Part shown: positions 9,520-54,200 of the stretch, in pieces
Layout: every line of letters starts with the position of its first letter
Numbering within the stretch: the stretch's first letter is position 1
IMG/VR virus record: IMGVR_UViG_3300044707_000497
Coordinates: 1-62,760 of that record
Direction: 5' to 3' (one strand)
DNA: 62,760 bases
Source: a virus
Lineage: Duplodnaviria > Caudoviricetes
Notes under the pieces: model-generated
Databases searched by the model: none
Seen by the model: the letters and a program-made list of their open reading frames with translations, nothing else
Told to the model about the DNA's origin: nothing
Position numbers and translations under genes: made by a program

Positions 9520-12002
9520 AAAACAATACACGAAGCTCGCACACTGTAACTAAAAGTGCTACCGTCCTCTCGAAAAGCTGTAATTCTATCAAAATTGGCT
9601 AGTTCAAACATGCAGGACCCTACAAAAAAGCCTGATGTAGCATATGCCCCCCAAGCATACATAGAATATCTATTAGTAGTTCCATATTTAATAAAAGTAG
9701 CGTTAAAACTTACAAAGTCCGTAGCAGAATTGCTGCTAGCGATATACCCATTCTCAGCGCTGAAATTAGCAACACTGTTACCATTAAACCTAGCGCCGGA
9801 GCTAACGTAACTTGTCAAATTTGCCGTGCTGGAGCCGACCCTGAAATAAATAATAGAGCTTTGATCGGAGCCGGTTAGAGTGACTGCAAAACGAAGATTG
9901 ATAATGTTGGCGTTCGATACCGGAAATATATGGGTATGAGAGCCAGTAACGCCAGTAAAGCCCGAGGAAACGGCGTTGTTTTCATGAACTCTAGGCAATA
10001 AGTTTGTTATTTCTGTATGCGTATGCCCAAGTTGGCTGTAACGAGCGTCTTGTTGTGCTTCCGTCAGACGCATAATTGCCCATGGCGTCCAACCATTTGA
10101 ATGATTTCTATGGCGGACATAAACAGCGTTGCTAGAATTTGAAGGGCCATTCAAATCTAAGTGGCTGTATAGTGTTTGTCTAAGCCAACTACTATTATGG
10201 CCCTGAACAAACCCAATCCAACTTGTATTGTTATTCTGCGCGGGAGGGGAATTTGAAGCGTTAAGCCCAGTATAAAACCCTTGCTGCGTAGCATTGTCCC
10301 AGTTGCTAGTTAAATTATCTTGACTTTCATCCGACAAACGGGTGAGGAGATCGTAAGGAAGTGGGGTTCCGATTGTAATGTCCGAACTGCCGTCAAAAGA
10401 AACGCCATTGATGCTTCTGGCGGTTGTGAGCTTGCCAGCGGTAGTTGCACTGGTTGCGGTTCCAGTCAAATCCGCTGTGATTGTTCCTGCCGAAAAGTTC
10501 CCTAGGGCATCCCTTGCTACAATGGCGCTGACAGTATTGGCGCTGGCCGCTGTGGTGGCAGAGTTCAGCACTTTCCCTGATGTCGAAATCGTGGCGAGCT
10601 TGGTGTCGGCAATCGCAGCGGTGGCATTGATGTCCGCGTCCACAATCACCCCTGCTGTAATTTGAACAGGGATTGTTAAGTTAGCGCCGCCATCGAAAGT
10701 TTGCGCGGTTCCAGTGAGATCGCCGGAGACATTAACATTGCGTGCCGTTTCGAGCTTGGTCGCCGTTGCAGCATTTCCCGTACATGAAGTAGAGGAGCCT
10801 GTCAGGCTTGCGGTGATCGTGCCTGCCGAGAAGTTGCCCGAGGCGTCGCGTTGAACGAGGCTGCTGACTGTGTTAGTCGAGCCATAGGCAACAGGAGTTG
10901 CCAGTAGGCCGTTGCTTACCACGACCGCGCCTGTTCCGGCTGGGGCGGGGCCAGCGGGGCCTTGACCGCCCGTATCGCCCTTGTCGCCCTTGTCGCCTTT
11001 GACGCCTTGCGGGACAGTGAATTTAAGAACTGCGGCGGACGCGGTACCTGTGTTTTCAACAAGAGCGCTCGTTCCTGCCGCTCCAGTTACAGTCTGCCCT
11101 ACAGAAATAGTGGCTAGCGGGCCTTGCGGGCCTCGTATTGGCCCTGTATTTGTCCAAGCAGTGCCGCTCCAGACATACCCATCCCCCGTATCTGAAACCA
11201 CCCATAGGTCGCCTTGAGTGCGGTTGGCGGCAGGAAGTGCGCTAAAAGTAGCAACTGCGCCTTTCAATACGACGCTCGTGCCGTCTTTTCCCGCCACGCC
11301 CTGAATACCTTGCGGGATGGTGAAATTCAGAACGGCGGCAGAGGTCGTGCCGGAGTTTGAGACTGCGGCGTTTGTTCCTGCTGCTCCCGTCGTAGTCGTT
11401 CCGACTGCAATGGTCGCTGCGGTGCCAGTATCGCCCTTGGGGACTGTGAAATTCAGAACGGCGGCAGAGGTCGTGCCGGAGTTTGAGACTGCCGCGTTTG
11501 TTCCTGCCGCGCCTGTCGTAGTTGTTCCGACTGCGAGCGTCGCTGCATCGCCTTTGACACCTTGAGGGATGGTGAAGTTTAAAACGGCGGCGGAAGTTGT
11601 GCCGGAGTTTGAGACTGCGGCATTCGTGCCTGCCGCGCCTGTCGTAGTCGTTCCGACTGCAACCGTGGCTGCTGTTCCGGTATCTCCTTTAGGAACTGTA
11701 AAGTTTAAAACAGCGGCAGAGGTCGTGCCGGAGTTTGCGACTGCTGCGCTTGTCCCTGCCGCGCCTGTCGTGGTCGTGCCGACTGCTACCGTCGCTGCGT
11801 CTCCTTTGTCGCCCTGTTTTCCGGCAGGACCAACTCCGACTTCGACCCACTGCCCGTTGATGTAAAGATACTCGCGCAGGGTTTGAGTATTGGCCCACCG
11901 CGTCCCGAAAGGCGGGTTCACTGGGGCTGTCGCCGCGTAGATCGTATCCCTCGGAGGAGCGGCGTTGAGTTGATTTGTTACAGGGTTAAATAAAAATCTC
12001 AT
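9516..12002 (-). CDS. Long tail fibre with collagen-spaced repeats
   Basis: Repeats AATxAVGTTTTGAAGTxAAVxNSGTTSAAVLNFTxP, ATKLETARN-type fibre motifs, AT-richer C-terminal tip. Confidence 0.88.
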   Translation of the reverse strand: MRFLFNPVTNQLNAAPPRDTIYAATAPVNPPFGTRWANTQTLREYLYINGQWVEVGVGPAGKQGDKGDAATVAVGTTTTGAAGTSAAVANSGTTSAAVLNFTVPKGDTGTAATVAVGTTTTGAAGTNAAVSNSGTTSAAVLNFTIPQGVKGDAATLAVGTTTTGAAGTNAAVSNSGTTSAAVLNFTVPKGDTGTAATIAVGTTTTGAAGTNAAVSNSGTTSAAVLNFTIPQGIQGVAGKDGTSVVLKGAVATFSALPAANRTQGDLWVVSDTGDGYVWSGTAWTNTGPIRGPQGPLATISVGQTVTGAAGTSALVENTGTASAAVLKFTVPQGVKGDKGDKGDTGGQGPAGPAPAGTGAVVVSNGLLATPVAYGSTNTVSSLVQRDASGNFSAGTITASLTGSSTSCTGNAATATKLETARNVNVSGDLTGTAQTFDGGANLTIPVQITAGVIVDADINATAAIADTKLATISTSGKVLNSATTAASANTVSAIVARDALGNFSAGTITADLTGTATSATTAGKLTTARSINGVSFDGSSDITIGTPLPYDLLTRLSDESQDNLTSNWDNATQQGFYTGLNASNSPPAQNNNTSWIGFVQGHNSSWLRQTLYSHLDLNGPSNSSNAVYVRHRNHSNGWTPWAIMRLTEAQQDARYSQLGHTHTEITNLLPRVHENNAVSSGFTGVTGSHTHIFPVSNANIINLRFAVTLTGSDQSSIIYFRVGSSTANLTSYVSSGARFNGNSVANFSAENGYIASSNSATDFVSFNATFIKYGTTNRYSMYAWGAYATSGFFVGSCMFELANFDRITAFREDGSTFSYSVRASCIVL
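11310..11812 (-). repeat. Four tandem ~120-nt coding repeats in the tail fibre gene (diverged copies near 11010-11125 and 13100-13225)
   Basis: Near-identical gtgccggagttt/gcgcctgtcgt blocks repeated at about 120-130 nt spacing. Confidence 0.9.
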
Positions 12003-12691
12003 ACCGGGGTAATAAAAGTTACCTGCCCGTTTGCGTCATACGACAAGGCTACCCGCAAGGCGTTCACGCCGCCGCGTGTGTAGGTGATTAAAGTGGGGCC
12101 GTATTGCCCGTTGACGACAGACATTGAATACCCGTTGGCGGGGCTGTAGGCGTCGAAGTTTAAAACTGGGTATTTGCCGTCCACTAAGGCAGGCAGTTTG
12201 TTATTGAGGAGCGTCTGTGTTTCGTCGCTTTCGGTTTTGACCTCGGTCTTGAATGCGGTCAGGAGCGTCTGCGTCTCGTTAAATTCGTTTTGGAGGAGCG
12301 TCTGTGTCGCATCGCTTTCATCTTTGACCTCGGTCTTAAATGCGGTGAGGAGTGTCTGCGTCTCGTTAAACTCAGTCTGAAGGAGCGTCTGCGTCTCATC
12401 ACTCTCGTCTTTGATGAGCTTCCCTAAGTCAACCCCGTCTTCGTAGAAAACTGCAACCTTGTCGGTGTCGCGGTGAACATCGCAGTCCTTGAAATCTGTA
12501 AAATGGATGACCGTATTTCCAGCAACCACGGAAATCTCTGCGGGGTCGTCTATCGAAAAATTGTGGTAAACAAAACCCACCGTCGCATTGACGACGAGCA
12601 GAACGCGCTCGGCGCTCAGTTCAATGCCGACCAGAGTGACCGTGCGGGCGGCGACATCCAGATTAACAGTGCCTTTGAATTGCTGTTTCAT
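11999..12691 (-). CDS. Tail-associated protein, paralog of the N-terminus of 4103..6115
   Basis: Shared MKQQFKG...NATVGxVYHNF start and [21 protein letters not shown] heptad repeats. Confidence 0.8.
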
Positions 12692-27974: not shown

Positions 27975-28465
27975 CAGAGGAAGAATTTAACCAAGCCGTC
28001 GCCGACAATTTTGCGAAGCTGGTGAGGACCGCCGAGGCAGTCCTAGGGTGCCACGATTCCGCCAAGGATTCGGTGCAGCAAGCGGTCATCCGAGTTTGGA
28101 AGAATATCGCCACTTTTGATCCGAAGAAGGGAGCCTTTGTAACACTGCTGCATGTCGCGGTGAAGCGCCAAGCCATAAGCCATCAAATCTCGCGCAAGCG
28201 TAGGCTTACGGCTATGGAACGCTTCTGGGTAGATATTATCCCCGAGCGCCCGAGGAAGGCCGACCCACGCTTGCAAGGTTTGATGGACGCCTTGGACGAG
28301 TTGCCCGAGAAGAAACAGGCGCTCCTTCGGGAACACTTCTTCGAGGGCAAGACCGTAGCGGAAATCGCCGAAGAGATGGGGCTGTCGCGAGCCGCCACGG
28401 GCGCACGGATCAAGACTCTCAAAGGGGCGCTGAAGCGGCAGTATAGAAAAAAGATACGCACATAA
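27971..28465 (+). CDS. ECF-type RNA polymerase sigma factor
   Basis: Region 2 (AKDSVQQAVIRVWKNIATFD...F) and region 4 (LDELPEKKQ...EGKTVAEIAEEMGLS). Confidence 0.88.
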   Translation: MTEEEFNQAVADNFAKLVRTAEAVLGCHDSAKDSVQQAVIRVWKNIATFDPKKGAFVTLLHVAVKRQAISHQISRKRRLTAMERFWVDIIPERPRKADPRLQGLMDALDELPEKKQALLREHFFEGKTVAEIAEEMGLSRAATGARIKTLKGALKRQYRKKIRT

Positions 28466-28494: not shown

Positions 28495-28524
28495 AACCCT
28501 CGGTAGTGGTGCCGAGGGTTTTTT
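28495..28524 (+). terminator. Rho-independent terminator
   Basis: AACCCTCGGTA-GTGG-TGCCGAGGGTT followed by TTTT. Confidence 0.85.
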
Positions 28525-28529
28525 CTTGC

Positions 28530-29000
28530 CCCGAGGGTGGGGGGTCTGGGGGGAGTTATTAACTTTCACCAAAAAATAAGTAACTCCGAGTGATGACATT
28601 ACATCAAAATGGGGGGAAGGGGGGGGGGGGGGGGTGGGAGAAATAAAAATAAAAAAAACTACGGCGACGAGAAAAAACCCCTAATATATTATATTTTTTT
28701 AAACGGTAGAATAGGACAAACCCCCTTTCCCCCCGAGAGGGGTTAAAAGCCTCCACTCGTATCGGTTAGTGTGGGGGGTTTGAGAAAAAACTGACCCCCC
28801 GAGACCCCCCGTTTTTTACAAACCCCCCGCTTGCGCTCGGCCCCTCCACTCGGCCTAAAAATAAATATGCGTATGAATGTATATTTCCAAAAATCGACAA
28901 AAAATTTATTTGGGGTCAAATGATAGTCGCCACCGGCGATAGCCGGTGATAGCCCCCTACCCTGGTGGGGTGGGTGGTGGGGTCGAATTTCCGTCCATAA
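28530..29000. other. Low-complexity non-coding G/C- and A/T-tract region (candidate genome terminus/pac site or origin)
   Basis: G16 run at 28619-28634, many G/C runs and IRs, no credible ORF; lies between the end of the middle genes and the early region. Confidence 0.45.
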
Positions 29001-29271
29001 GTGCCTCTACGGGTTTTCAACCCGTATCCCCTGAATCCATAAACCATTGATTCACAGCAAGTTAGCACATCTGCCGCTTTGCTTTGTCCAGCATTGCACA
29101 GCATTTCCAGCGTAGAAAGCCCGTTTTTGCAAAGTTTTCATTGCCCTAGGGCACAAGGGTTTATGGCTACTTTGTTCAAAAGTTAATAACTGGCAATTTT
29201 TGCAGAAAAGCCGTAGATTGGCAAGGCAAAGCCTTGAAAATGAGTAGCTTGCAAAGATTCCGTATAGAGAA

Positions 29272-29929
29272 GTGTCGGAGACGACATTAAACATCAGTCG
29301 GGGCTGGCTCGCCAGTCCTCGCAAGTGATCTTTTTAGTTTGCGGGAATGACCTACGGATGAGGATGGAAGCCCTCACATTGGTTCAAGTCGGAACGGGCT
29401 TTAGCTCATAAGTTTCTGACGGACTTCAGTCCAACTGAACCAAAGTAGAATGCTGCCTGCATCAATGCTGAATTGATTTTCGGTCTTTGACATTTTGACG
29501 GAGTGAATCTCCAAGTGGCGGTTGGTTGAGACGCGGCGGTATATCGGGCAGTCCGAATCCGCTGAAGCGGTAAACCTATAAAGGCTTCAGGGCAATAATC
29601 TGGAAACGGGTTGAACCTCATTTCGGGGCGTGTTCGGGGCGCATTGTGGCGGATTTATCCGCTGGCGGCTACTCCCTCGCAACTCTCTCGCAATGATCCG
29701 TAGCATCCAATTATTGAAAATTTTAGTTTAGGAGAGCCCTTGCGCTATGCAAGCAAGGGGAAGCGGCCAAAGGCCGACGCGGCGGCGATGCCTCACCGCG
29801 TTAGTTCAACTTAAACGGCGACAATAGAAGCCAACCCGAATCTGATCAACGGCAATGTCTAACAGTGTTGCCACCAGTAGCGCGGTTCGATCAGTGAAGG
29901 CAATCACTCTTCAGGCGGTGGAAGAGTGA
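29272..29929 (+). ncRNA. Large multi-hairpin structured RNA / early leader
   Basis: More than 15 hairpins with G-U pairs on the + strand, a long-range helix CTACGGAT(29352)/ATCCGTAG(29696), no credible ORF. Confidence 0.7.
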
Positions 29930-29997
29930 GGTTAATGCAACCAAGAATCCATGTGGATTCTTGCCAGTCACAAGTCTGGAGAGAATGCAGAGTGACC
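29930..29997 (+). ncRNA. Twister ribozyme (type P1)
   Basis: P1 GGT/ACC, TAA, P2 TGCA/TGCA, AC pairing with loop GT, P3 CAAGAATCC/GGATTCTTG, P4 CCAG-TCACAAGT-CTGG, GAGTG; predicted cleavage U29933/A29934. Confidence 0.88.
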
Positions 29998-30025
29998 AAC
30001 CCGCAGTAAAATAGAAAGTAAAACC

Positions 30026-30457
30026 ATGCAAGTTATTGAAACACAAATCACAGCCCCAGCCGTCGCAGCAGCAGTCACCCGCGACATTGTCACATCCAAG
30101 GGCAAAGTCACTGGGACTGAATTCATCTTCGAGATGGGCGATACCAAAGCCCTCAAAGAAGCGATCAAATCGGCTCATCCAGATTGGGGCAACAAGCGGA
30201 TCAGCCGTGAGGTTGCTGTCCTCCGTGCCGACAAGATGGCGGCAAGCCGCCTCCAAGCGGATGCCTTCGTCGGAATGCAGTTCGCCAAAGGCCGCACGGC
30301 TGTCCTCGGTAAGGATCGCAACAGCGGCAAGTCTTCCCTCCACTTCGAGGATTGCAATGTCGAGGCTGATGGCACTGCCATCCTCAAGGCTGCCGCTCAA
30401 AAGCTGGCCGACAAGATGGGCTGGACATTGGAGGCTGCCATCGAAGCTCTCAAGTAA
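30026..30457 (+). CDS. First early gene, hypothetical protein (143 aa), flanked by ribozymes
   Basis: aaaaccATG context, strongly biased codon usage. Confidence 0.85.
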   Translation: MQVIETQITAPAVAAAVTRDIVTSKGKVTGTEFIFEMGDTKALKEAIKSAHPDWGNKRISREVAVLRADKMAASRLQADAFVGMQFAKGRTAVLGKDRNSGKSSLHFEDCNVEADGTAILKAAAQKLADKMGWTLEAAIEALK

Positions 30458-30512
30458 GGTCGAAACACCCCGCAAGGGGTGTCTGTCCGTAATGCGGACA
30501 CTGATGATGACC
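30458..30512 (+). ncRNA. Hammerhead ribozyme (type II)
   Basis: GGTC-GAAAC-ACCCC-GCAA-GGGGT-GTC^-TGTCCG-TAATG-CGGACA-CTGATGA-T-GACC; predicted cleavage after C30483. Confidence 0.92.
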
Positions 30513-30541
30513 ATCTGCAAAACCTTAACAAGAAAGAAGAT

Positions 30542-30757
30542 ATGACAGAAATTATCGCAATCGCTTTAGACAATCTCAAGGATGCCCGTGACAATGGGCA
30601 ATCCCAATTCCCAAGCAATGATATTCTCGCCGCTTGCATCACCATCGCCAAGTCAAAGGCTTCTCAAGTAGAAGAAGACTTATATGGAATCATATGCCGT
30701 GGAAACACTGGCGAATTCCGTTTCACTGATCACTCCTTTCGGTTTTTCCCTCTCTAA
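30542..30757 (+). CDS. Hypothetical early protein
   Basis: ATG at 30542 downstream of the hammerhead; the longer track start runs through the ribozyme. Confidence 0.65.
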   Translation: MTEIIAIALDNLKDARDNGQSQFPSNDILAACITIAKSKASQVEEDLYGIICRGNTGEFRFTDHSFRFFPL

Positions 30758-30759
30758 TT

Positions 30760-31284
30760 ATGACATCCAACTTCCAACAAATCCGCGAGCATGGAATCCT
30801 GAAGGCTGATCCAATGCTCGACCGCAAGGATTGGTCTTTCGACCATCGCGGCGAGATCATCGCCAGGTATAAAAACAAGGTGGCGGGCAACAAGACATCC
30901 AAGTATAAGGAAATCCGCAAGCCTCTCCCGACTCCCCTCGAAACAAGGCTTGCCCTCCAGTCTCGGCTTCTCATTGCCGCCCAAGAGCGGGGCAATGTGC
31001 CACTGAATCATGCACCAAAGAAGCCTGCACCAGTGCATTTCGTTCTCATTGTAGAGAATAAGACTTTCTTCCCTGAAGTAGAGAAGGATGGAGAAACCGT
31101 AAGAATGCCCCTCCGTGTTGTGAAGGGCACGATTATCGGCACGAATAAATTCCGCGAGGAGTTTTCCATCGTGAAGCGGTCTTGCAACCTGAAGGTTGCC
31201 AAGATCAGGGCAAGAGTTGCCCGAGTTTGCGGCGACGCTGCCGCCAAAGAATTAGATCAGTGCATCATCAACCTATACAAATAA
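30760..31284 (+). CDS. Hypothetical basic early protein
   Basis: 174 aa, tightly packed with neighbours. Confidence 0.7.
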   Translation: MTSNFQQIREHGILKADPMLDRKDWSFDHRGEIIARYKNKVAGNKTSKYKEIRKPLPTPLETRLALQSRLLIAAQERGNVPLNHAPKKPAPVHFVLIVENKTFFPEVEKDGETVRMPLRVVKGTIIGTNKFREEFSIVKRSCNLKVAKIRARVARVCGDAAAKELDQCIINLYK

Positions 31285-45064: not shown

Positions 45065-45292
45065 TTAGACTTCTTCCCAGCCATCGAACTCCTCTGGAGC
45101 CTTCAGGATAATCTGTTCCTGAATGTCCTCTTCGACTCGGTCTTCGCGTCCGAGGTAGTTGACCTCTCGGTGAAGTTTGACCTTCGCGGCGAGGTCTTGA
45201 AGCGATGAACCCCTGAAGCGAAAACCCGTGGAGGGTTCTTCAAAGTTCCATCCTCCAGGGGGCCATTGATTCGGATTCTTGAGGCGTCTCAT
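45065..45292 (-). CDS. Hypothetical protein
   Basis: PPGGWNF motif; ATGA overlap with the giant gene. Confidence 0.65.
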   Translation of the reverse strand: MRRLKNPNQWPPGGWNFEEPSTGFRFRGSSLQDLAAKVKLHREVNYLGREDRVEEDIQEQIILKAPEEFDGWEEV

Positions 45293-48200
45293 AGCGGAGT
45301 GTCCTTGGCTCGTTTGACGGCGGCGTCGGCTGCTTTGATGCGATCCTTGGGAGCGATCTTCTTCGCGGCATCGCTCGGCTCGTATTTCTTGTAGCGCCCG
45401 CTACGAATCATCGCGATGTCCTCCTTGCCGATGCGATTGGCTTTAAGAATTTCCTCGGCCTTCTTCGGAGAGATTTTGCCCAGCCCGATAGCCGCCAGCA
45501 CATCGTCGCGGAAATCAGCGGTGAGGCGGTAGGTCGCGTCGTTGGCTCGTTCGTAGGCATCGGCAATCTGGTCGGGCGAGCGAGTGCCCTTGGAGTTAAA
45601 CTCGCGGGTGAAGAGGGATGAGGCATCGCGGATGTCGCGGCTGAACTTTGAAGCCTTGAATCCAAGAGCCGCTTCGACATCGACCTCGGTGATGCGTTGC
45701 CCTGCTGCCAAGCCGAGGAGTTCGTTGGCGAGATTGTAGGCGCGTCCGCTGTCGCTCACAGCCCCCGCTCCTGCCTTAATGATTCGGCCTGCGGTGTCAA
45801 ATGCCCCAGGGCTGAAAGCCTTCCAAATCCGCTCGGTGGTTTTCGCTGCAATGTTTGCTCCGGTGTCCTGCGGGTTGTAAATCGGGCGTCCGGTGGCGTC
45901 TTGGTTGCGGAGGACATCGACAATCGCTCCGCTGACCAACTGCTCGCTCTTGAATGGACGGATCAATTCGCTTGCCGCCTCCATTGCGCCTCGGGTAATG
46001 CGCTCCATTGCTTCCGCGTCGTCGCGGGCTGTGAGCGAACGCACAAAAGCGCCAGATGCTTTTTTCCAGTAGTCGTAAGGATCGAGGAAACTCACATCCA
46101 CATAGCTCACCTTGCCGTCCTTGTTTTTAGTCAAGAGAAGCTGCGAGTTCTTCTGCCAGTTAGGCAGGAAGCGGCGAAGGCGCTCTTCGTCGTCTCGTCC
46201 AATGCCCGCCAGCGCCATCATGCCAGTTGCCACTGCTCCAGGGCCGAATGCCGCAAACACCATCCCGCGAGCCCTTTTCCAGCCGATAGCCTGTAGCTCT
46301 TTATTGCCTGTTCGATTACCCTCGGTGATCTCGTAGCGGGCGAGCTTCATCAGGTTGATCGAGGTGCGAATGACTTCGGTAGTGAAAGTGATGAATGGAG
46401 CTACAAACGGGAACGCCTTGACCTTATCAAGTGCGGCGGGAGAGAGGCTGTAGGTCGGGCGGATGTCGCGAACGATCTTTGCCGCATGATCTTTGACCTG
46501 TTCGGGGCTCCAGCCTGGCATCGCTTTCGTGTATTTATCGACCTCGGCCATGTAGCCCATGACCTTCCAGAAGTCGTCACTTGAAGCGTAGGCTTTCTGT
46601 GCGGTATCCCATACTGCTCCGGCTGATTTTTGCAGCTTTCCAATCAAGTGATTTGAGAACTGCTCTTCAGTCTTGGAGAAGCGTTTTGCCTCCATGAGTT
46701 GACCAAGCATGTTTCCTACAATCGACTCGCCGATGACACCACGGCGAACGAGTTCCTGCATCTCGTTCATCATCGCCTTTCGGAAATCCGCTTCTTTTGG
46801 GTAGGCGTTAAAGGCGCTGCGGAAGCTCATGTTGAAGGCTGTGCCCATGCGGTCTTTGAGCTTCGGAATGTCGGAGAACCCGAAGTTTCCTGCTGCCACA
46901 TCAAAGAGAATGTTGCCGAGGTTGTTTCGGACTTGCGCGACGGGGGACAGCACGGTCTTCGCCGCCATCGACCAACCCGTGACCTTCGAGAGCGCCCGCA
47001 CCCAAGCGTAATTGTCGGAGACTCCGTTCTGTGGAAACATCTGGTAGAGCGCCTCGACGAGGAGCTTGTCGCCGTGAAGCCCTGCAAGGGGAGCCAGTGA
47101 TTTATTGTTGTCAGAGGAAATTTTCAGGTAGCCCCTAGGGCGGTCTGCTTCAGGGCCGTTGTAGAGCCAGCCTTCTTTTAGGCCCAACCCGCGAAGATCG
47201 GAGAGGAACTGGTGGTTGGCTACGAGAGAGGACATCTTCATCACGCTCTTGGCGTAGTTGATCGTAGGGTCTTCATAGCGGCCCCAGAGGGCTTGAATCT
47301 CGGGGGAGATGTTGCCGCGAGTGTCGAAAATCGAGAGGTCTTTTTGCCCAGGGATGCGCCCGCGCAAGATCACGCTGCCCATGCCGTCTTCGCCGATAGC
47401 GAGGAGGTCGTCTATGGCTTTGTCGATCTGCTCCTGCTTGGCTGTGCCCTTGGTCTGCGCCTGCGCGTCGGCCTTGGAAATAAACCCGCCTTCGCTCTCG
47501 GTCTGGCGGATGAGTTCGGCGGCGTTGCGTTGCTCGATGTTGCGCTTGATAAGACGCTCGGCGGCCTGCATGACCTTGGTGTTTTCCCGCACCTGCTTGG
47601 CCCACTTTTCATTGTCGAAGATTTCGTAGGAGCGGTGGAGGTAGATGCCGAGATTAGCTTCCACGGTCGCAGCCATGCTGGGATCAAGGATGCCCGAATC
47701 TTTGAGCATCGCTGAGTAGTAGGCGATATGTTCGTTCATCTCGCTGACCGCATCGGCTACATTGGCTGGGAGCGCGGCGAGCGCGGCCCGTTGCTTGACC
47801 TTGAATGCCTCGCGGTTCTTGGCGAGGTGGGCGGCTTCCAATGTGTTTGCCTCCTCCTCGTCGATCTCGCGCATCCGGCGCACTTCGGAACGCTGGGCTT
47901 GGGTGAGCGGGTTGTCGAGGTTGCCGAGTGCCGTATTCATTGTCTCGGTTGAGACTTCGACCCCTGACTTCTTGGCGGCTTTGACGGCGCTAACGAGGCG
48001 CGTCGAAAGAGTGTCGATCACGCGGGCGGCGGCTGTGATCTGCTGGCGCGATGCCCGCCACTTGTCGCCCGCCTGTTTGTCGAGCTTGCCATCGGGCGAA
48101 AGCGCCCCGCCTGCCGTGTAAGTCCCGCCGTTAAATGTCGTCTTCGACTCCGCTCCCGTGAGCTTGGCGATCATCTTCATCGCCTCGCCTGCGGGTGACA

Positions 48201-51200
48201 TCGGCGCTTTTGTCATAGCCCATGGCTCGACAAGGATAGCGTCTTCCGGCGCGATATTTTCGGTTGAATACGGCTCAACCGCTTTTCGTTGATCCTCTGT
48301 AAATTCTATTCTTGCCTCTACATCACGGGACTCAATTTCTCCTGCTATTTTTTTGTAAATTTCAAAATTGGCATTCTTGTTCATTACCCACCCAGCACCA
48401 TATTTTTTCTCAGCTTCAAAAACATGTTTGGCGATTGGGTTCTCTATGGTCTCCTTACTTACCCCATATTTTTTGTAGAGGCCGTCTAGTTGTTTTTTTA
48501 AACTATCTACGAGTGACTTTTGACGTGTAACTTCTGCGGCATCTACTTCACGCCCGAAAACGATAAACTTTTTCTTTTTAGGGGTCTCAGCGATAATTTT
48601 TTCTGCTTTTTCAAGCCATGAACTGAGCTGTGTTTTTTCAGCTAACAATTCTGCTATCCTGCGGGAGTTTTGTTTCATCTCCATAGGGACGACTGTTGAA
48701 GGACTGCCCCCCTGCGCAAAGCCCTCGCGGTCTTGTATCCAATGTTGAACTTCGTGCAATAAAGTCGCTAACGAGTCTTTGCTGATTTGGTCGTTTTGAT
48801 CTAATATGACTGAAGAAGATATAACATCTCCGACCCGCAGAGTGCCGTCCGCCAGCCGCTCAAGGGCGACCTTAAACTTTCTCCCCGACTGAATGTTGCC
48901 CCCGATTGGAAAAAATGGAATCTCTTTGGCTTCTGGATAAGCATCGTAGAGAGCCTTGTGGTTAAGGACATCTGCGAGTTTTAAATAACCCCCGCTGCCT
49001 ATTCTCTCCGTAACACTGTCAAGAGAAACACTGCCAAATACTTCTCCGCCAAAAGCTCGTTTAGCTTTTTTCCGGTAATCGTCCATAGAGACAAACCCCG
49101 CCTTGTCGTCAGGTATCTCCCACCGCATCTTGCCATCATACTTTCCAGGGAACCAACCCGTCACTGCGCGAATCTCCTCAGATGTTTTCCCGTCTGCCGC
49201 CATTGCCCTAGCGGCCTCCAAACTGTCGCGCTTAAATTGCGGCATATCCGCTTTCTCTCCTCCGTAAGTCGCACGAGGCGCGGGCACGCCGATCATTTGC
49301 TCCACGGCGCGTTGCACCCCAGCTTCGGTTTGCGGGGTTTGGATGAACGCGAGGACATTGTCGAGCCCTTGGGTGAGGAGGCTGTCGCCGCTTACATCGA
49401 AGCCGTAGATGATGTCTTTGAAGTAGGCGAAAATTTGATCGAGGAGATTGCGGATGTAGCCGCCCTTCTTCGGCAGACCTTGCATTGGCGCGGCTTGCTG
49501 AAGGAAGATTTGAAACTCTGGATTCGTGAGAATCTCGGTGATGAACTCATCCATGTTGGTGAGCCCGTAGAACAAGTCGCCTGGGGCACGGCGAGCTTTA
49601 GCCTGGCTGAGTGTTTGACCTGCTCTCGTGTATCGCCCTAGAGCGAGTCGCTCGGCATGCTTAAAGATTTTCTCCATATCGCGGAAAGCGGCTCGCTCGA
49701 CACGGTTGAGCGGATACCCCTTCTGCGTTTTCCAGAAAAAGACATGGTGCAAGGCTTCGTGAACAATCGTCTGAGCAATGCCGCCTTCGTGGGGGCTGTC
49801 CAAGTTGACGCTAATTCTTCCGCTCTTTGCTTGAGTGCCTGGCTCGTAGAGTCCAGCATATTTTTCAGTGGTCTCCGTGAAGCGCACCTTCGAGAAATCA
49901 AACCCGAGATCAAGGAGCATCTGTGCCACATGGCGAAGTGGCGCGGGAACAGTGTCGTCGCCCGCAATGTTCGAGAGCATCTTTGGCACATCCTGCATGT
50001 AACCCATCTCGATCTCATTCGGTGTCAGGATTCCTTCGTCAATGAGCTTGTCGTAATCTTCTTCAGTGATTCCGTTGTAGAAAAGAATGTCCGATACGTT
50101 AGCGGCACGAAGATCAGCTTGGTCTTGATCGGCTTGATCTTGGTTTTTAGCTCTGATGATTCGCGGCTTTGCTGCTGGGCTCTGAACTTTTTGAAACTCT
50201 ACCGCATTTCCGTTTTCGTCCGTGTCGAACGAATAAACGGGGTAGCGGTTAATCAACTCCGAAAGCTCTTCGCGGATAGCGTCATCTTCTGTAATCGAAG
50301 GTTTAACTTCTGTTTCAAAGTCTGTTCCTCGAAAATAGGCTCTTTCAGCTTGATCTCTTTTTTGTTCTGCGGCTTTTAATTCTTGTCCCAGTTCTTGAGA
50401 TACCCTTCCAGTGTCGGCTCCTTGTTCATTGACTCGCGACAAGACCGCTCGATAATTAGATTTAGCCTGGTCCCAGTCGCTTTCTAATTTTGTCACCCGC
50501 TCAAGTGACCTGTCTATATCTTCTTGGGTGACGCCAGGTTGTCCATACCCATCTCTATCGACTAAAATTTCTACGATACGAGGCTTTGACTCTTTTGAAA
50601 TGGTCCCTTCATTGCTGTTATACCCTTTAGACTTATACTCAACTGATTGAGGTTCTATAACTAGAGTAATGCCCCCCGCACCGATTGATTGATTTGGCTT
50701 AGTGCTGTCAATAGTGATGTTGGTTCCGTTACGAATCCCATTCAAAATTTTAGGGATGTCTTCGGCGTCTCTTACAGTATGAAGAACGTGGGGCGTCTTA
50801 AACGCTGCGGGGCTCTGTGGCGCGTCCTCCGATTCCATCTTGCTTTCTTGTTCCAATAACTTCTCAAACGCCGCTTTCTCTGCCGCTATCTCTTCTTCAG
50901 TCTTCGGAAGCTCGGTTGCTTCGCGCATCTCGCGGTTTGTCGGGCGGCCTGCTTTTGCACGCTTTGCTTTTTTAGCCGTGGGCTTGGTTACTTGGTTATT
51001 ACCTTCTGGCTTAACTTCTGCCTCGCCCTGGGGCGCGGGAATCGAACTTTTATCACTCTGGCTTTTCGCAGCCTTGGCTGCGGTCTTTGGCTCCGCTTTG
51101 GCTTCAGCCACTCCACGAACGGCTTTTAGAAGCTCACTCGGGGCAGCTTTATACTTGGTGCCACGGAAGGTGAAGTTCCATGAATCCATGAAGGCTTTTC

Positions 51201-54200
51201 CAAGCTCCGAGGAAGGATTGATGTTTACTCCAATGAGCTTGAGGATCGCGTTGAAGGCATCGCGGATCATGCCGTTGAAAGTGCGCTTGTCGGCGTTGAC
51301 CGCTCCGAAACCAAGCTGGGAAAGAAGTTTAACGAAGTCGGGGCTTCCCGTCATCTCAACAATAAACTCGTCGAGGTTCTGGAGTCCGTTGTATCGGCGG
51401 GAGCCTTCCTCGCCGCTTGCGATCATAGCCTTCAGAGCCTTCTCGTAATTAGCGAGGCGGGCTTCCGGCGTGGTCGCTCCGGCCTTGTCGGCTGCTGCCT
51501 TCATCGCGGGGCTGGCGTTGCCTGCCTTGAGAATGGCAGCACGGCGCATCCGTTCTAGGTCTTTGATGATGCGGTCTTCCTGCGCGGTGGTCTTTACCTT
51601 GCCGTGGACTTTTGCAAAAGTAGCGACGTGGGCGAGTTCATGTAGCACAGTCTGCAAAGGAGTCTCGCGGTCGTGGGCTTGATCGAGATTGATGTAAACG
51701 CCGAACGCACTGTAATCGGCATTCCGCCCTAGAAGACCGCCCCAGACTGCACGATCCTTGGTTCCAGTCTTGAGGAAGTTCGCGGCTTGGACTTCGATGT
51801 TGTCGAGCTTGAGCCCGCGCTTTTCCATTTCAAGAAAAGCCTTGGCGCGAACCTGCATGTCGCGTGGTGCTTTGTTCTTTGGATCGGCGAGGCGGGTCAG
51901 GAGTTCACGGGTGGATTCAAACGCTCCGAACCGGACGAGTTCGTTGAAGTTCAGGTCGCGGAGTTTGCCGTAGTCGCCTTCCTTTTCAGCGGCGAGGATT
52001 GCATCGGCGTAAGCCCCGACGAGTTCCTGGTCGCCCAATTCAACGAGGCGTTCGATGCCTGGAGCCACGGAAACCACGGCGTCCTGTGCGGCTGCGGCTT
52101 TGTTCTCGTCGGCTCGGGAGTTGTAAGCGAGGTAGGCGCGATCCACTTCGGCATTGCTCATGCCGACCATTTGCTCGTCGCTCAACCCAACCTTGGCCTG
52201 CAAGAAGCGGCGCTTGATGCGCTGGAGCTTGGGGCTGCTCGGCTTGCGCCCTGGGGCACCTTTGATTTCTTTGGCTGCTCCCTTGGCTTTGCCTGGGGAC
52301 TGTGGGCTCCTTCTCTGGTAGGCTGCGGAAATCAGTTCTGTCGTTTTTTGTTTTACTTTGTTTTCCGCTATTTTTTTAGCCGTTGGCTGATCTATCCCTC
52401 GCTCAATAATTTTTGCTTGAGCCTCTTCGATTCGCGGTTTTTCAAACGCGTCCAACATGCCTTGTTGCTTTTCAGCATCAGGCTCATTTAAATAATCGTC
52501 GGCGAACTTCTCGTCTGGGGTCAGTGCTACTTGCTCTACAGCCGCTTCTGCTTCTGCGACTGGAGTTGCGGTCGCCGCTTTGAAAGTTTTGGTCTCTTGG
52601 TCATAGACCGTTTTTGTTTTTTTAGGCTCCGCTGTTTTAGTTTCCGCTTTGGGGGCTTTTGCCGCCGCATTGTTTAGCGCAAAAAGCTGAACGACTTGCT
52701 GTGAGGCGTCATCATCGGAAAGCGCGGCAATCTCATCTTCCGAAAGCCCTTCTGACTTCAGGATGTTTTGACGGTCTTGAAAAGACAGCTTGGCGTTCTG
52801 TTCTTTGGCAGCGGCTATGTTTTCGGCTGAGATTGCAACGCGGCTTTTCGGTTCTGCTCTTCTCGGGATAGCGTCATCAGCCTTGACACCAGCAACTTCT
52901 TCTGCCAACTCAGCGGCTCGTCGTTCAACGGAAGCGAGAAGTTGCTTGAAGGTTCTTCTGTCTCGGAGGAAGAGGAGTTGTTCTTCGACTGTTCGTTTGA
53001 GTTCATATTGGGATGTTCTATCTGGGGCGTTGAGGTAATCAAGCGCAAGGAGTTCAAGTTTAGTAAGCGATTTTTTCCATTCTTCAAGTTTTTCGAGGAA
53101 CCCTGACTCAAGCGCAGTCTTTGCCAGCTTGTCGGCTTCGACCATTGTTTCCAGTTCTTCAACCGACAATTTGCCTGGGGCTGCTAGTTCTACCTTACTC
53201 GCTCCTTTTTTCCCTTGTTTTGAGTCTTGAATGAGTTGACTCGCGGTAAGATTGTCTCCTTGAGCATCTTCTCCATCCTCTTTTTTAGCGTCCATCGAGA
53301 CATCATCTGGCCGTAAACTAGCGAATTTTAAAGCCTCAGTTTTAACTTGTTCGAGCGCGGCGATATGTTTACTAGGCGACGCAAAAATACTAAGCTCGCC
53401 GCCTAATGCTGTTACCGTTCGGTTTACAAGTTTGGTTTCTTCAGTGTTCTGTGGCCGCCCTTCGAGAACCAATTTCGGTATTTCAGACGCATTCGTGCCT
53501 GAAACAAAAAGCTCGGCGGTTTTAGCAACCAATCCCGCTGCCCCTTTGACCTCGGCACCTTTCTTAGGCTCCAAAGATATTTTAGACAGCGCATTTTGAA
53601 TTTTATTAGCTGCGAGCTTTCGGTATTCTTCCTGCCCTTGGAGTCCCAACCCACTTAAACTATCGCTGGCAATTTGTGACTCTACGCTTTTGAACCACGG
53701 TTTTGAGATCACCGAAAACAGCATCTCGATTAGCGGAGAAGCCCCTTGAATTCTTTTAGCTGCTTTGGTTGTAGCGTCGGTGCCAGCTTTTTCTCGGCTC
53801 GCTCTGTTTTGGTTCGAGGCGTCAACCTTGATGTTCTTGATGGCTTGGTTCTTTTTGTAGGCGTTCTCAAACGAACCTTGAGGGTCTGTGGCGTTGAACG
53901 TCCCGACATTTATCCCATTTTCTTCATACTCGGCTGTGACCACTATAGAGTAGTCCTTACCCTCGACGGGTCGAACCGTCATCCAAGCTGGGGCAGGGGT
54001 ATTATTTGGAACCCGAACCTCGACTCCTTGGTTCATAACCCGAAGAACATTGAGTTTTTCTGCCTGCTGCGTTCTTTCCGCGTTCTGCGGCCTCACCTTT
54101 TTCGGCGCGTATGTGAAGAAAGAGCGGTTTACCGTCGTCCCATCTTTTTTCCTAAAGAGTTTTGTGGATACCGTGAAAGGTTTACCCAGTCCGTCTTTGC

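What the first reader, a model, noticed from the sequence alone, without database searches (positions are those of the whole stretch)
29930..30512. First early gene bracketed by twister and hammerhead ribozymes: a self-excising, potentially circularisable mRNA
Seen: a complete twister ends 28 nt before the ATG at 30026, and a complete type II hammerhead starts at the base after the TAA. Established: both leave 5'-OH and 2',3'-cyclic phosphate ends. Cleavage at 29933/29934 and after 30483 would excise a 550-nt monocistronic RNA with exactly the ends RtcB ligases join, as in engineered ribozyme-flanked circular RNA systems. Even if linear, the 5'-OH end would resist 5'-monophosphate-dependent decay. 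The cargo is an unknown, codon-biased 143-aa protein. The same cuts release the upstream large RNA and give the downstream operon a new 5' end. This is the best candidate for an undescribed system here.
Basis: partly seen in the sequence, partly recalled or inferred. Interest (0 to 1): 0.92.

Follow-up and report, generated by a model that had tools for sequence, protein, structure and literature searches.

The report
Phage gene flanked by two self-cleaving ribozymes
A small phage gene of unknown function sits between a twister and a hammerhead self-cleaving RNA that probably cut it out of a longer transcript as its own messenger; this layout is already known from other phages, and a circular messenger is unlikely.

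Summary
A type-P1 twister (29929-29998, cut 29933|29934) and a type II hammerhead (30458-30520, cut after 30483) bracket the 143-aa ORF 30026-30457. Both score below Rfam's gathering cut-offs (48.9/67.2 and 30.6/37 bits). The twister's four departures from consensus are two compensatory double changes in its pseudoknots. It belongs to a natural subclass: 28 strict IMG/VR examples plus 8 in metagenome loci, none reaching the cut-off. The hammerhead has an intact core and 7/4/7-bp stems (1 of 200 shuffles comes near). Its loop-tail pseudoknot is only about 3 bp, so its speed in vivo is uncertain.

Ribozymes flanking single prophage genes, and the circular-RNA idea, were published in 2011, with circles sought and not detected (PMC3088659). 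I found the same twister-ORF-stop-hammerhead II layout with a different, unannotated cargo in L016, and a twister-ORF-pistol-ORF-HH-ORF-HH chain in L106. The whole twister stays on the excised RNA, so a ligated junction should be re-cut. There is no terminal stem, no phage RtcB and no RNA data. Best reading: co-transcriptional processing into a monocistronic mRNA with structured, protected ends. This is a new member of a known kind.

The parts
28495..28520 (+). Intrinsic terminator (11-bp stem followed by a T run) that ends the upstream replication and sigma-factor operon.
28529..29928 (+). ORF-free leader of about 1.4 kb. It begins with G/C homopolymer runs. The promoter has not been located. 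The twister cut would detach it from the mRNA.
   Evidence: The X4 relative has 1-, 5-, 11- and 12-nt indels here, so the region is non-coding. Fold z-scores are mostly unremarkable, the strongest being -3.8 at 29175-29324. No Rfam match at E<=1.
29929..29998 (+). Type-P1 twister ribozyme. P1 is 29930-32/29995-97, P2 is UGCA/UGCA, P3 is a 10-bp hairpin and P4 is CCA/UGG. The predicted cut is between U29933 and A29934.
   Evidence: Pseudoknots T1 and T2 are both kept through compensatory A-U pairs (architecture from PMC5408937). The subclass recurs.
29999..30025 (+). 27-nt spacer holding a weak purine-rich ribosome-binding region.
   Evidence: The twister-to-ORF spacing is typical of the subclass, median 27 nt.
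30026..30457 (+). Cargo ORF of 143 aa, function unknown. It belongs to a virus and metagenome-only family.
   Evidence: 11 homologues at 52-79% identity. No Pfam or PHROG family. AlphaFold2 pLDDT 67, and 0 of 191 Foldseek PDB matches at E<=0.001. The nearest Atlas cluster is 100% viral.
30458..30520 (+). Type II hammerhead ribozyme. It reads GGUC-GAAA, stem III with a GCAA loop, UC| (cut after C30483), stem I, CUGAUGA, one extra U, then GACC (stem II ends at 30512), followed by the 3' tail.
   Evidence: The extra U is shared with 4 of 5 Hammerhead_II elements that pass Rfam's gathering score.
30542..30757 (+). Next ORF, 71 aa. After the hammerhead cut its mRNA would begin with the stem I hairpin. 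This ORF is swapped out in a related phage.
   Evidence: The X4 contig replaces 30539-30758 with 164 other letters.
30760..31284 (+). Following ORF of 174 aa in the same operon, function unknown.

Best explanation
This is a ribozyme-delimited gene in a temperate-type tailed phage from lake water. After the terminator at 28495-28520 a new transcript runs through a long leader. The twister folds and cuts itself between U29933 and A29934 during transcription, which removes the leader. The hammerhead, which starts on the base after the stop codon, cuts after C30483.

The result is a 550-nt monocistronic mRNA. Its 5' end is a 5'-OH buried in the retained, doubly pseudoknotted twister. Its 3' end is a 7-bp GC-rich, GNRA-capped hairpin ending in a 2',3'-cyclic phosphate. 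The downstream operon RNA starts exactly at the base of the hammerhead stem I hairpin.

The likely purpose (inferred) is insulation. Each cistron is uncoupled from upstream and downstream RNA context, and each piece gets defined, structured ends that slow end-dependent decay and block 3' tailing. Stability and translation of this gene are thereby set independently of its neighbours.

Shown here: the sequence features of both ribozymes and recurrence of the layout. Inferred: cleavage in vivo, and its effects on stability and translation.
For: Twister. The match is full length. All four departures from the consensus are pairwise compensatory: L2 A with L4 U in T2, and L4 A with L1 U in T1. The invariant A at the cut site, the AAG of L4 and the G-C and U.A extensions of P4 are kept. 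28 unique IMG/VR twisters share the L4/L1 variant under strict criteria that left L2 free. Their L2 is AC in 24 and GC in 4, and nothing else occurs. In the 32 twister-bearing IMG/VR loci scanned, no twister-P1 match reached the gathering score. The 8 twisters in 7 metagenome loci scored 35.8-63 bits, so a score below the cut-off is the rule for this subclass. CHiTA found about 94% of natural twisters tested to be active, and its descriptor allows 'NC' at this pseudoknot strand (PMC11662667).

Hammerhead. The core is intact (CUGAUGA, GAAA, GUC|) and stems I/II/III have 7/4/7 bp. It is rare in shuffles. The extra U after CUGAUGA is also present in 4 of 5 Hammerhead_II elements that pass Rfam's gathering score (L012, L083, L087, L094).

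Layout. L016 has a twister, 20 nt, a 119-aa ORF, TAA, then a Hammerhead_II (45.9 bits) starting on the next base. L106 has twister-ORF-pistol-ORF-HH_I-ORF-HH_I-ORF, with ribozymes starting 1-2 nt after stop codons. 29 of the 35 subclass twisters that have a following ORF lie within 60 nt of its start, median 27 nt, against 55% for random positions.

Literature. Perreault 2011 showed in vitro cleavage at all sites in three such prophage arrangements, and in vivo cleavage for one. The processing, stability and translation hypothesis is summarised in PMC6765202.
Against: No cleavage assay or RNA data exist for this locus; no RNA run was listed. Both scores are below Rfam's curated thresholds.

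The hammerhead's loop I has only 5 nt and can form at most about 3 bp (AUG:CAU) with the 3' tail. The five validated relatives have about 5 bp. Perreault 2011 reports that shortening this pseudoknot lowers rates 20- to more than 100-fold. The 3' cut may therefore be slow at cellular Mg2+.

A 5'-OH is not always protective. From recall, the glmS ribozyme product is degraded by RNase J1 in Bacillus (Collins 2007, seen here only as a reference-list entry). The host is unknown.

The promoter was not found, so the length of the detached leader is unknown. The spacing control is weak (55% background).
Confidence: 0.6

Rival explanations
1. Circular mRNA. After both cuts a host RtcB-type ligase joins C30483>p to the 5'-OH of A29934, making a 550-nt covalently closed, exonuclease-resistant mRNA.
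For: The end chemistry is right for RtcB. Engineered Tornado constructs are described as circularising coding mRNAs in E. coli through the native RtcB (PMC12628768, passages). RtcB is common: 10 of 14 control genomes. In the ViennaRNA ensemble the freed strands GACC 29994-97 and GGUC 30458-61 pair with p about 0.71, which would bring the two end regions together.
Against: The complete twister core stays on the excised RNA. A ligated C-A junction is again a twister substrate, since the N-1 base is weakly conserved and P1 is dispensable, so circles should be re-cut. Tornado needs a terminal stem that mimics RtcB substrates, and its ribozymes leave with the discarded flanks (PMC13622603); neither holds here. 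The first 12 nt show no pairing above p 0.05 with the last 40 nt. The GACC/GGUC match is absent in the analogous L016 cassette. Perreault 2011 looked for circular or spliced products from flanking hammerheads and could not detect them. The phage record has no RtcB or RNA-ligase domain. 550 is not a multiple of 3 and the ORF has a stop codon, so rolling translation gains nothing.
Confidence: 0.06
2. Only the twister works. The hammerhead is a decaying or very slow copy, so the biology is 5' leader removal alone, and the gene stays on a polycistronic RNA with its downstream neighbours.
For: The hammerhead scores 30.6 bits, against 39.7-45.9 for five relatives. It lacks the pseudoknot of 4 bp or more that most type II hammerheads have and depend on.
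Against: The core is perfect and all three stems are long and GC-rich, which is very unlikely by chance. Its placement exactly at the stop codon matches active-looking cassettes elsewhere. According to Perreault 2011, about 60% of hammerheads use contacts other than a pseudoknot.
Confidence: 0.2
3. The ribozymes mainly serve as conserved module boundaries, that is, short shared sequences where phages recombine to swap single-gene cassettes. RNA cleavage would be secondary.
For: Two independent mosaic breakpoints lie next to the hammerhead's 3' edge. The X4 contig replaces 30539-30758. X3 record 14 is identical over 30527-30755 but differs upstream of 30527. Cargo genes between ribozymes differ from phage to phage, as Perreault 2011 also noted.
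Against: Gene-boundary mosaicism is general in phages and needs no ribozyme. Compensatory changes that preserve RNA pairing show selection on the RNA fold, not merely on DNA identity. Only two breakpoints were seen, from contigs.
Confidence: 0.05
4. One or both matches are chance look-alikes with no ribozyme function.
For: Both are below Rfam's gathering scores. The hammerhead's whole-window E-value is only 0.032.
Against: The twister's E-value is 7.4e-8 and it shows double compensation in both pseudoknots. The shuffle tests argue against chance. Both elements are on the coding strand and abut the ORF's two ends. The same pairing occurs in L016.
Confidence: 0.03

Closest known systems
Clustered hammerhead ribozymes flanking individual genes in prophages (Perreault et al. 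2011, PMC3088659; passages read)
   Same: Self-cleaving ribozymes lie on the coding strand on both sides of a single small phage gene whose identity varies. The proposed role is processing of long phage transcripts into single-gene mRNAs. Type II hammerheads are common in these arrangements.
   Different: Here the 5' element is a twister rather than a hammerhead, and the hammerhead has only a minimal loop-tail pseudoknot. No cleavage data exist for this locus, whereas three of their arrangements were shown to cleave.
Twister/hammerhead-associated gene neighbourhoods in bacteria and phages (Roth 2014 and Weinberg 2015, as summarised in PMC6765202; the primary papers were not held)
   Same: Twister and hammerhead share neighbouring genes and lie close to each other. 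Pistol and RAGATH RNAs occur in the same neighbourhoods, as in L106, L104, L083, L087 and L094. The review states that the exact ribozyme class seems unimportant and that the reason for the association is unknown.
   Different: The passages I could read do not spell out the exact twister-ORF-stop-hammerhead II cassette, with the ribozyme starting on the base after the stop codon. This twister subclass falls below Rfam's cut-off.
Tornado circular-RNA expression system (engineered; PMC13622603 and PMC12628768, passages read)
   Same: Two self-cleaving ribozymes flank a cargo and leave a 5'-OH and a 2',3'-cyclic phosphate, the ends that RtcB joins.
   Different: Tornado adds a terminal stem that mimics RtcB substrates, and its ribozymes depart with the flanks. 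Here a P1-type twister sits on the 5' side and so is retained whole, which would allow re-cleavage, and there is no terminal stem. From recall only, Tornado places a P3-type twister 5' and a P1-type twister 3', the opposite arrangement.
RiboJ-type ribozyme insulators in synthetic biology (recalled; no call)
   Same: A self-cleaving ribozyme in the 5' UTR removes upstream RNA, so that expression of the gene no longer depends on promoter or leader context, and it leaves a structured 5' end.
   Different: RiboJ is an engineered part. The case here is natural, paired with a 3' ribozyme, and untested.

Membership tests
Twister ribozyme, type P1 (Rfam RF03160) | Stems P1, P2 and P4 (P3 optional) in the type-P1 order | tested here: met
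   alignment and the parse: P1 3 bp, P2 4 of 4, P3 10 bp, P4 3 of 3.
Twister ribozyme, type P1 (Rfam RF03160) | Two pseudoknots: T1 (three L4 nucleotides with L1) and T2 (L2 dinucleotide with two bulged L4 nucleotides) | tested here: met
   The architecture is from PMC5408937. In the window T1 is C-G, A-U, C-G and T2 is A-U, C-G. Both A-U pairs replace consensus G-C pairs on both sides. In 28 subclass members L2 is AC (24) or GC (4).
Twister ribozyme, type P1 (Rfam RF03160) | Conserved catalytic and core nucleotides: A 3' of the scissile bond, AAG in L4, and the G-C and U.A extension of P4 | tested here: met
   All are present in the alignment and the sequence.
Twister ribozyme, type P1 (Rfam RF03160) | Score at or above Rfam's gathering threshold | tested here: not met
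   48.9 against 67.2 bits. The whole subclass fails it: no twister-P1 hit in 32 IMG/VR loci at gathering, and 8 of 8 below it in metagenome loci. This reflects the model's seed, not the fold.
Twister ribozyme, type P1 (Rfam RF03160) | Site-specific self-cleavage | not testable with these tools
   No RNA run was listed. Needs an in vitro transcription assay.
Hammerhead ribozyme, type II (Rfam RF02276) | Catalytic core CUGANGA ... GAAA, with a UH cleavage site after stem III | tested here: met
   CUGAUGA, GAAA and GUC| are all present. One extra U between the core and stem II is shared with 4 of 5 relatives that pass gathering.
Hammerhead ribozyme, type II (Rfam RF02276) | Stems I and III closed by loops, with stem II open | tested here: met
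   Stems I/II/III have 7/4/7 bp.
Hammerhead ribozyme, type II (Rfam RF02276) | Tertiary contact between loop I and the 3' tail (a pseudoknot of 4 bp or more in most type II members) | tested here: inconclusive
   Only about 3 bp (AUG:CAU) are possible, against about 5 bp in L012, L083, L087, L094 and L016. The importance of this contact is shown in PMC3088659.
Hammerhead ribozyme, type II (Rfam RF02276) | Score at or above Rfam's gathering threshold | tested here: not met
   30.6 against 37 bits.
Ribozyme-flanked phage gene arrangement (Perreault 2011) | Two or more self-cleaving ribozymes on the coding strand flanking one gene or a short block of genes in a phage or prophage | tested here: met
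   Phage identity comes (terminase, tail fibres, integrase, DNA polymerase A).
Ribozyme-plus-RtcB circular RNA system (Tornado-like) | The ribozyme bodies are removed, so that the circle carries no active ribozyme at its junction | tested here: not met
   The twister cut lies at the ribozyme's 5' edge, so bases 29934-29998 stay on the product.
Ribozyme-plus-RtcB circular RNA system (Tornado-like) | A terminal stem that juxtaposes the 5'-OH and 2',3'-cP ends | tested here: not met
   No pair between the first 12 and last 40 nt exceeds p 0.05. There is only an internal 4-bp GACC:GGUC contact.
Ribozyme-plus-RtcB circular RNA system (Tornado-like) | An RtcB ligase is available, and back-joined junction reads exist | not testable with these tools
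   No RtcB in the phage record. The host is unknown and no RNA runs were listed.

The most novel reading that the evidence does not exclude
The excised 550-nt RNA is closed in vivo. This could be covalent, by a host RtcB-type ligase working in a ligation and re-cleavage cycle with the retained twister. It could also be non-covalent, through the freed GACC (29994-97) and GGUC (30458-61) strands that both ribozymes share. Either way it would be a natural closed-loop bacterial mRNA. Ribozyme-bracketed phage genes in general would then be a natural counterpart of engineered circular-mRNA systems.
Probability: 0.06. Interest if true: 0.85.

Novelty: new member of a known kind. Interest (0 to 1): 0.35.

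Why it matters
The biological role of the thousands of self-cleaving ribozymes in bacteria and phages is still described as largely elusive (PMC6765202). This locus does not change that picture, but it is a clean, compact test case. It has one small gene, one twister 27 nt upstream of it, and one hammerhead starting on the base after its stop codon. It sits in a phage that appears in lake and freshwater metagenome runs from several studies.

Two practical points follow. First, a whole natural subclass of twisters, with A-U substituted pseudoknots, falls below Rfam's gathering score. Default annotation therefore misses them, and ribozyme density in phage genomes is underestimated. Second, ribozymes that abut stop codons and ribosome-binding sites recur in unrelated phages. 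This supports the view that phages use them as cistron insulators. That view can be tested with ribozyme-dead mutants.

Tried and rejected
Relatives of the cargo gene. Covariation of these two particular ribozymes among true relatives could therefore not be measured.

Neighbour-based retrieval through the sigma-factor gene gave L002, whose contig ends, and L003, which diverges downstream. Neither has a ribozyme. blastn against the phage collection gave no match.

Read laying showed that a 91%-identical contig spans the cassette. Its difference table was truncated, so no claim is made about ribozyme conservation there. Parts without cover are not interpreted.

No RNA holder was listed by the look-up of sequencing runs, so there is no evidence either way on expression, cleavage ends or junction reads.

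The MAFFT alignment of the twister subclass (A3) misplaces P2 and L2 in members that lack P3. I therefore did not run the count of structure pairs and used my descriptor parse instead. That parse required P2 and P4 pairing and the L4/L1 motif by construction. Only L2, P1 and P3 were free.

Cargo function: Pfam and PHROGs found nothing. The AlphaFold2 model has modest confidence, Foldseek against the PDB gave no significant match, and the Atlas returned only viral hypothetical clusters. Cargo proteins of the analogous cassettes gave no Pfam family and only unknown-function PHROGs.

N4-like phage idea: the giant ORF carries only an LPD23 polyvalent-protein domain and no polymerase family, so I dropped this.

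The 'large upstream RNA' has no Rfam match and no uniform structure signal.

The Roth 2014 and Weinberg 2015 primary papers were not held, and supplements were not opened. Perreault's supplementary figures and data sets may hold mixed-class arrangements that I could not see.

Searches for natural circular phage mRNAs or recent functional work listed nothing relevant. That statement rests on those three searches only.
Full report
WHAT IS THERE. The window is a 62,760-base IMG/VR viral record, linear and estimated about 89% complete. It carries a large terminase, tail-fibre proteins, an integrase, a helicase, a family A DNA polymerase, a DUF5906 primase-like protein and a sigma-70-like factor. 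It is therefore a tailed, probably temperate phage. The DNA runs listed as holding parts of the stretch are labelled lake water or freshwater metagenomes from several studies. Most hold only a small share, and only four were laid.

The plus-strand replication and sigma block ends at 28465 and is followed by a strong intrinsic terminator at 28495-28520. About 1.4 kb without credible ORFs follows. Next come the twister, the 143-aa ORF, the hammerhead and a long plus-strand operon of unknown small genes.

CHECK OF THE OBSERVATION. At Rfam's gathering thresholds only a tRNA is reported. With permissive filters, twister-P1 matches 29929-29998 full length at 48.9 bits (cut-off 67.2). Its E-value is 1.8e-9 locally and 7.4e-8 for the whole window. 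Hammerhead_II matches 30458-30520 full length at 30.6 bits (cut-off 37), with E 7.6e-4 locally and 0.032 for the window. No other ribozyme appears at E<=1 in the window.

The U|A site is 29933|29934, the ATG is at 30026, TAA is 30455-30457, and the hammerhead starts at 30458. GUC| ends at 30483, and the excised RNA is 550 nt. Both elements fold into the expected secondary structures, with z-scores of -3.29 and -3.79.

IS THE TWISTER REAL? Its low score comes from four substitutions at positions that are more than 97% conserved in the family. According to the structure review (PMC5408937, passages), pseudoknot T2 pairs the conserved L2 'GC' with two bulged L4 nucleotides. T1 pairs three further L4 nucleotides with L1. 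Mapped on the alignment, the window has A (not G) in L2 opposite U (not C) in L4. It also has A (not C) in L4 opposite U (not G) in L1. These are two double compensations that keep both pseudoknots Watson-Crick paired. The cut-site A, the AAG of L4 and the extra G-C and U.A pairs that extend P4 are all kept.

The descriptor required P2 and P4 pairing but left L2, P1 and P3 free. It gave 28 unique twisters besides the window. L2 is AC in 24 and GC in 4, with no other dinucleotide. None of the 32 loci scanned gave a twister-P1 hit at gathering. Eight more twisters, in seven metagenome loci, score 35.8-63 bits.

The window's twister is thus an ordinary member of a natural subclass that Rfam's threshold misses. 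The CHiTA study reports about 94% of natural twisters tested as active, sensitivity mainly to unpaired pseudoknots and catalytic residues, and an 'NC' descriptor for this strand (PMC11662667, passages). I put the chance that this twister cleaves at about 0.9.

IS THE HAMMERHEAD REAL? It reads GGUC-GAAA, then stem III (7 bp with a GCAA loop), UC|, stem I (6-7 bp), CUGAUGA, one extra U, and GACC. A strict type II descriptor finds exactly this one site in the window. In 200 dinucleotide shuffles, 11 gave any hit and 1 reached 15 stem pairs, against 18 in the real element.

The extra U is not a defect. Four of five Hammerhead_II elements that pass Rfam's threshold in the fetched loci have the same U. 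What is weak is the tertiary contact. Those five have about 5-bp pseudoknots between loop I and the 3' tail. Here the 5-nt loop allows about 3 bp. Perreault et al. found that trimming this pseudoknot costs 20- to more than 100-fold in rate. I put the chance of useful activity in vivo at about 0.7.

THE ARRANGEMENT IS RECURRENT AND ALREADY DESCRIBED. In L016 (minus strand) a twister of the same subclass is followed after 20 nt by the ATG of a 119-aa ORF. Its TAA is followed on the next base by a Hammerhead_II scoring 45.9 bits, and then by the next gene. That cargo matched no Pfam or PHROG family. I did not align it with the 143-aa protein.

In L106 four ribozymes of three classes separate successive single genes: twister, pistol (62.6 bits) and two type I hammerheads. 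The hammerheads start 1-2 nt after stop codons. L104 has three twisters, L121 has two, and L055 and L118 each have a twister with a hammerhead 1-1.8 kb downstream. In total, 5 of the 27 twister-bearing IMG/VR loci showed a second ribozyme within 2 kb downstream. This is a lower bound, since many loci are short and ribozymes below threshold are missed.

Across 37 twisters of the subclass, 35 have a same-strand ORF of 40 aa or more starting within 400 nt. The median distance is 27 nt, and 29 of the 35 lie within 60 nt. The figure for random positions is 55%, so the enrichment is real but modest.

Perreault et al. [quoted passage not shown] The 2019 review adds several points (PMC6765202). Twister was recognised as a ribozyme because it shares neighbouring genes with hammerheads. 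The ribozyme class seems interchangeable. Processing of polycistronic RNAs into pieces of different stability or translatability has been proposed. The roles remain largely unknown.

HOW IT MOST LIKELY WORKS. The twister cuts at its own 5' edge. The mRNA therefore keeps the entire 65-nt double-pseudoknot fold as its 5' end, carrying a 5'-OH. The hammerhead cuts in its middle. The mRNA therefore ends in the GC-rich, GNRA-capped stem III with a one-base overhang and a 2',3'-cyclic phosphate. The downstream RNA begins precisely with the stem I hairpin.

Several points follow from established enzymology, which I recall rather than tested here. 5'-end-dependent RNase E entry and pyrophosphohydrolase-triggered decay need a 5' phosphate and a few unpaired bases. 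3' exonucleases need a single-stranded toehold. Poly(A) polymerase needs a 3'-OH. Such ends should therefore slow decay. Removing the 1.4-kb leader would also free the ribosome-binding region from upstream context. This resembles what engineered RiboJ-type insulators do (also recalled).

The caveat is host dependence. In Bacillus the 5'-OH product of glmS is a substrate of RNase J1 (recalled; the paper appears only as a reference).

WHY NOT A CIRCLE.
(i) The retained twister would see any ligated junction as an N-A site. The N-1 base is weakly conserved and makes few contacts, and P1 is dispensable.
(ii) Tornado relies on a terminal stem that resembles RtcB substrates, and on ribozymes that leave with the flanks. 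Here the termini sit in separate local structures, and no pair between the first 12 and last 40 nt exceeds p 0.05.
(iii) No RtcB or RNA-ligase domain is present in the phage record, and the host is unknown.
(iv) Circles were sought and not seen for hammerhead-flanked prophage genes.

Some points favour the idea. Tornado-type constructs are described as circularising mRNAs in E. coli through the native RtcB. Both ribozymes here happen to close with the same helix letters, so the freed GACC and GGUC strands pair with p about 0.71 in the ensemble. That match is absent in L016, so I treat it as coincidence. I leave about 6% for closure of some kind.

THE CARGO AND THE LEADER. The 143-aa protein has 11 metagenomic homologues at 52-79% identity, no Pfam or PHROG family, a modest AlphaFold2 model (pLDDT 67) and no significant PDB fold match. 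Its nearest Atlas cluster is entirely viral. Its function is unknown.

Cargo genes in the analogous cassettes are likewise small and unannotated. Perreault's example of ardA between hammerheads suggests, as a lead only, that such cassettes may carry host-takeover or anti-defence genes.

The leader is non-coding. The X4 relative has 1-, 5-, 11- and 12-nt indels there. However, it shows only local structure signals and no Rfam match. 'Large RNA' is not established, and neither is 'early gene'.

VERDICT. This is a new member of a known kind, a ribozyme-delimited phage gene. It adds two small points: a twister subclass that curated thresholds miss, and a recurrent mixed-class twister-ORF-hammerhead II cassette. 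Interest is 0.35.

Noticed in passing
window 54715-54788 (-), inside ORF 45289-56727 (-): A full-length tRNA-Met (anticodon CAT; 55 bits in Rfam, confirmed by ARAGORN) lies on the same strand inside a 3,812-aa open frame. The part of that frame downstream of the tRNA carries the polyvalent-protein domain LPD23. Either there are two genes with the frame open across the tRNA, or a tRNA is embedded in a giant gene.
   Followed up: partly
window 28520-28830: Straight after the terminator there are long G runs (up to about 16), C runs and A/T runs, some arranged as near-repeats. They could belong to an origin, a promoter or a packaging site. Unexplained.
   Followed up: no
window 30527-30759: Mosaic breakpoints lie next to the hammerhead's 3' edge. 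The run X4 contig replaces 30539-30758 (the 71-aa ORF) with 164 unrelated letters. A run X3 contig is identical over 30527-30755 but differs upstream of 30527.
   Followed up: partly
L106 (-), about 10,500-12,240: Four self-cleaving ribozymes of three classes (twister, pistol, two type I hammerheads) separate four consecutive single small genes. The hammerheads start 1-2 nt after stop codons.
   Followed up: partly
The 32 twister-bearing IMG/VR loci scanned, and L119-L125: A natural twister subclass (L4 GUCACAAGUC, L1 GAGUG, L2 mostly AC) never reached Rfam's twister-P1 gathering score. There was no hit at gathering in 32 loci, and 8 of 8 scored 35.8-63 bits. Default annotation misses these twisters.
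   Followed up: yes
window 29930-29932/29994-29998 and 30458-30461/30508-30513: Twister P1 (GGU/ACC) and hammerhead stem II (GGUC/GACC) use the same letters, and UGACCA follows both cores. After both cuts the freed strands could pair with each other (p about 0.71). This is not seen in the L016 cassette.
   Followed up: partly
L104, L083, L087, L094; L047; L005: RAGATH-28 RNAs accompany the twisters in four loci. L047 has more than 20 tRNAs and a tmRNA next to a twister. L005 has two twisters on opposite strands within about 140 bp.
   Followed up: no
run X5 contig overlapping window 30461-30496: A 552-nt contig matches 36 nt of the hammerhead's stem III and stem I region with 3 differences, then continues with a different CUGACGAG-type core. 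This is a related hammerhead in another genomic context.
   Followed up: no
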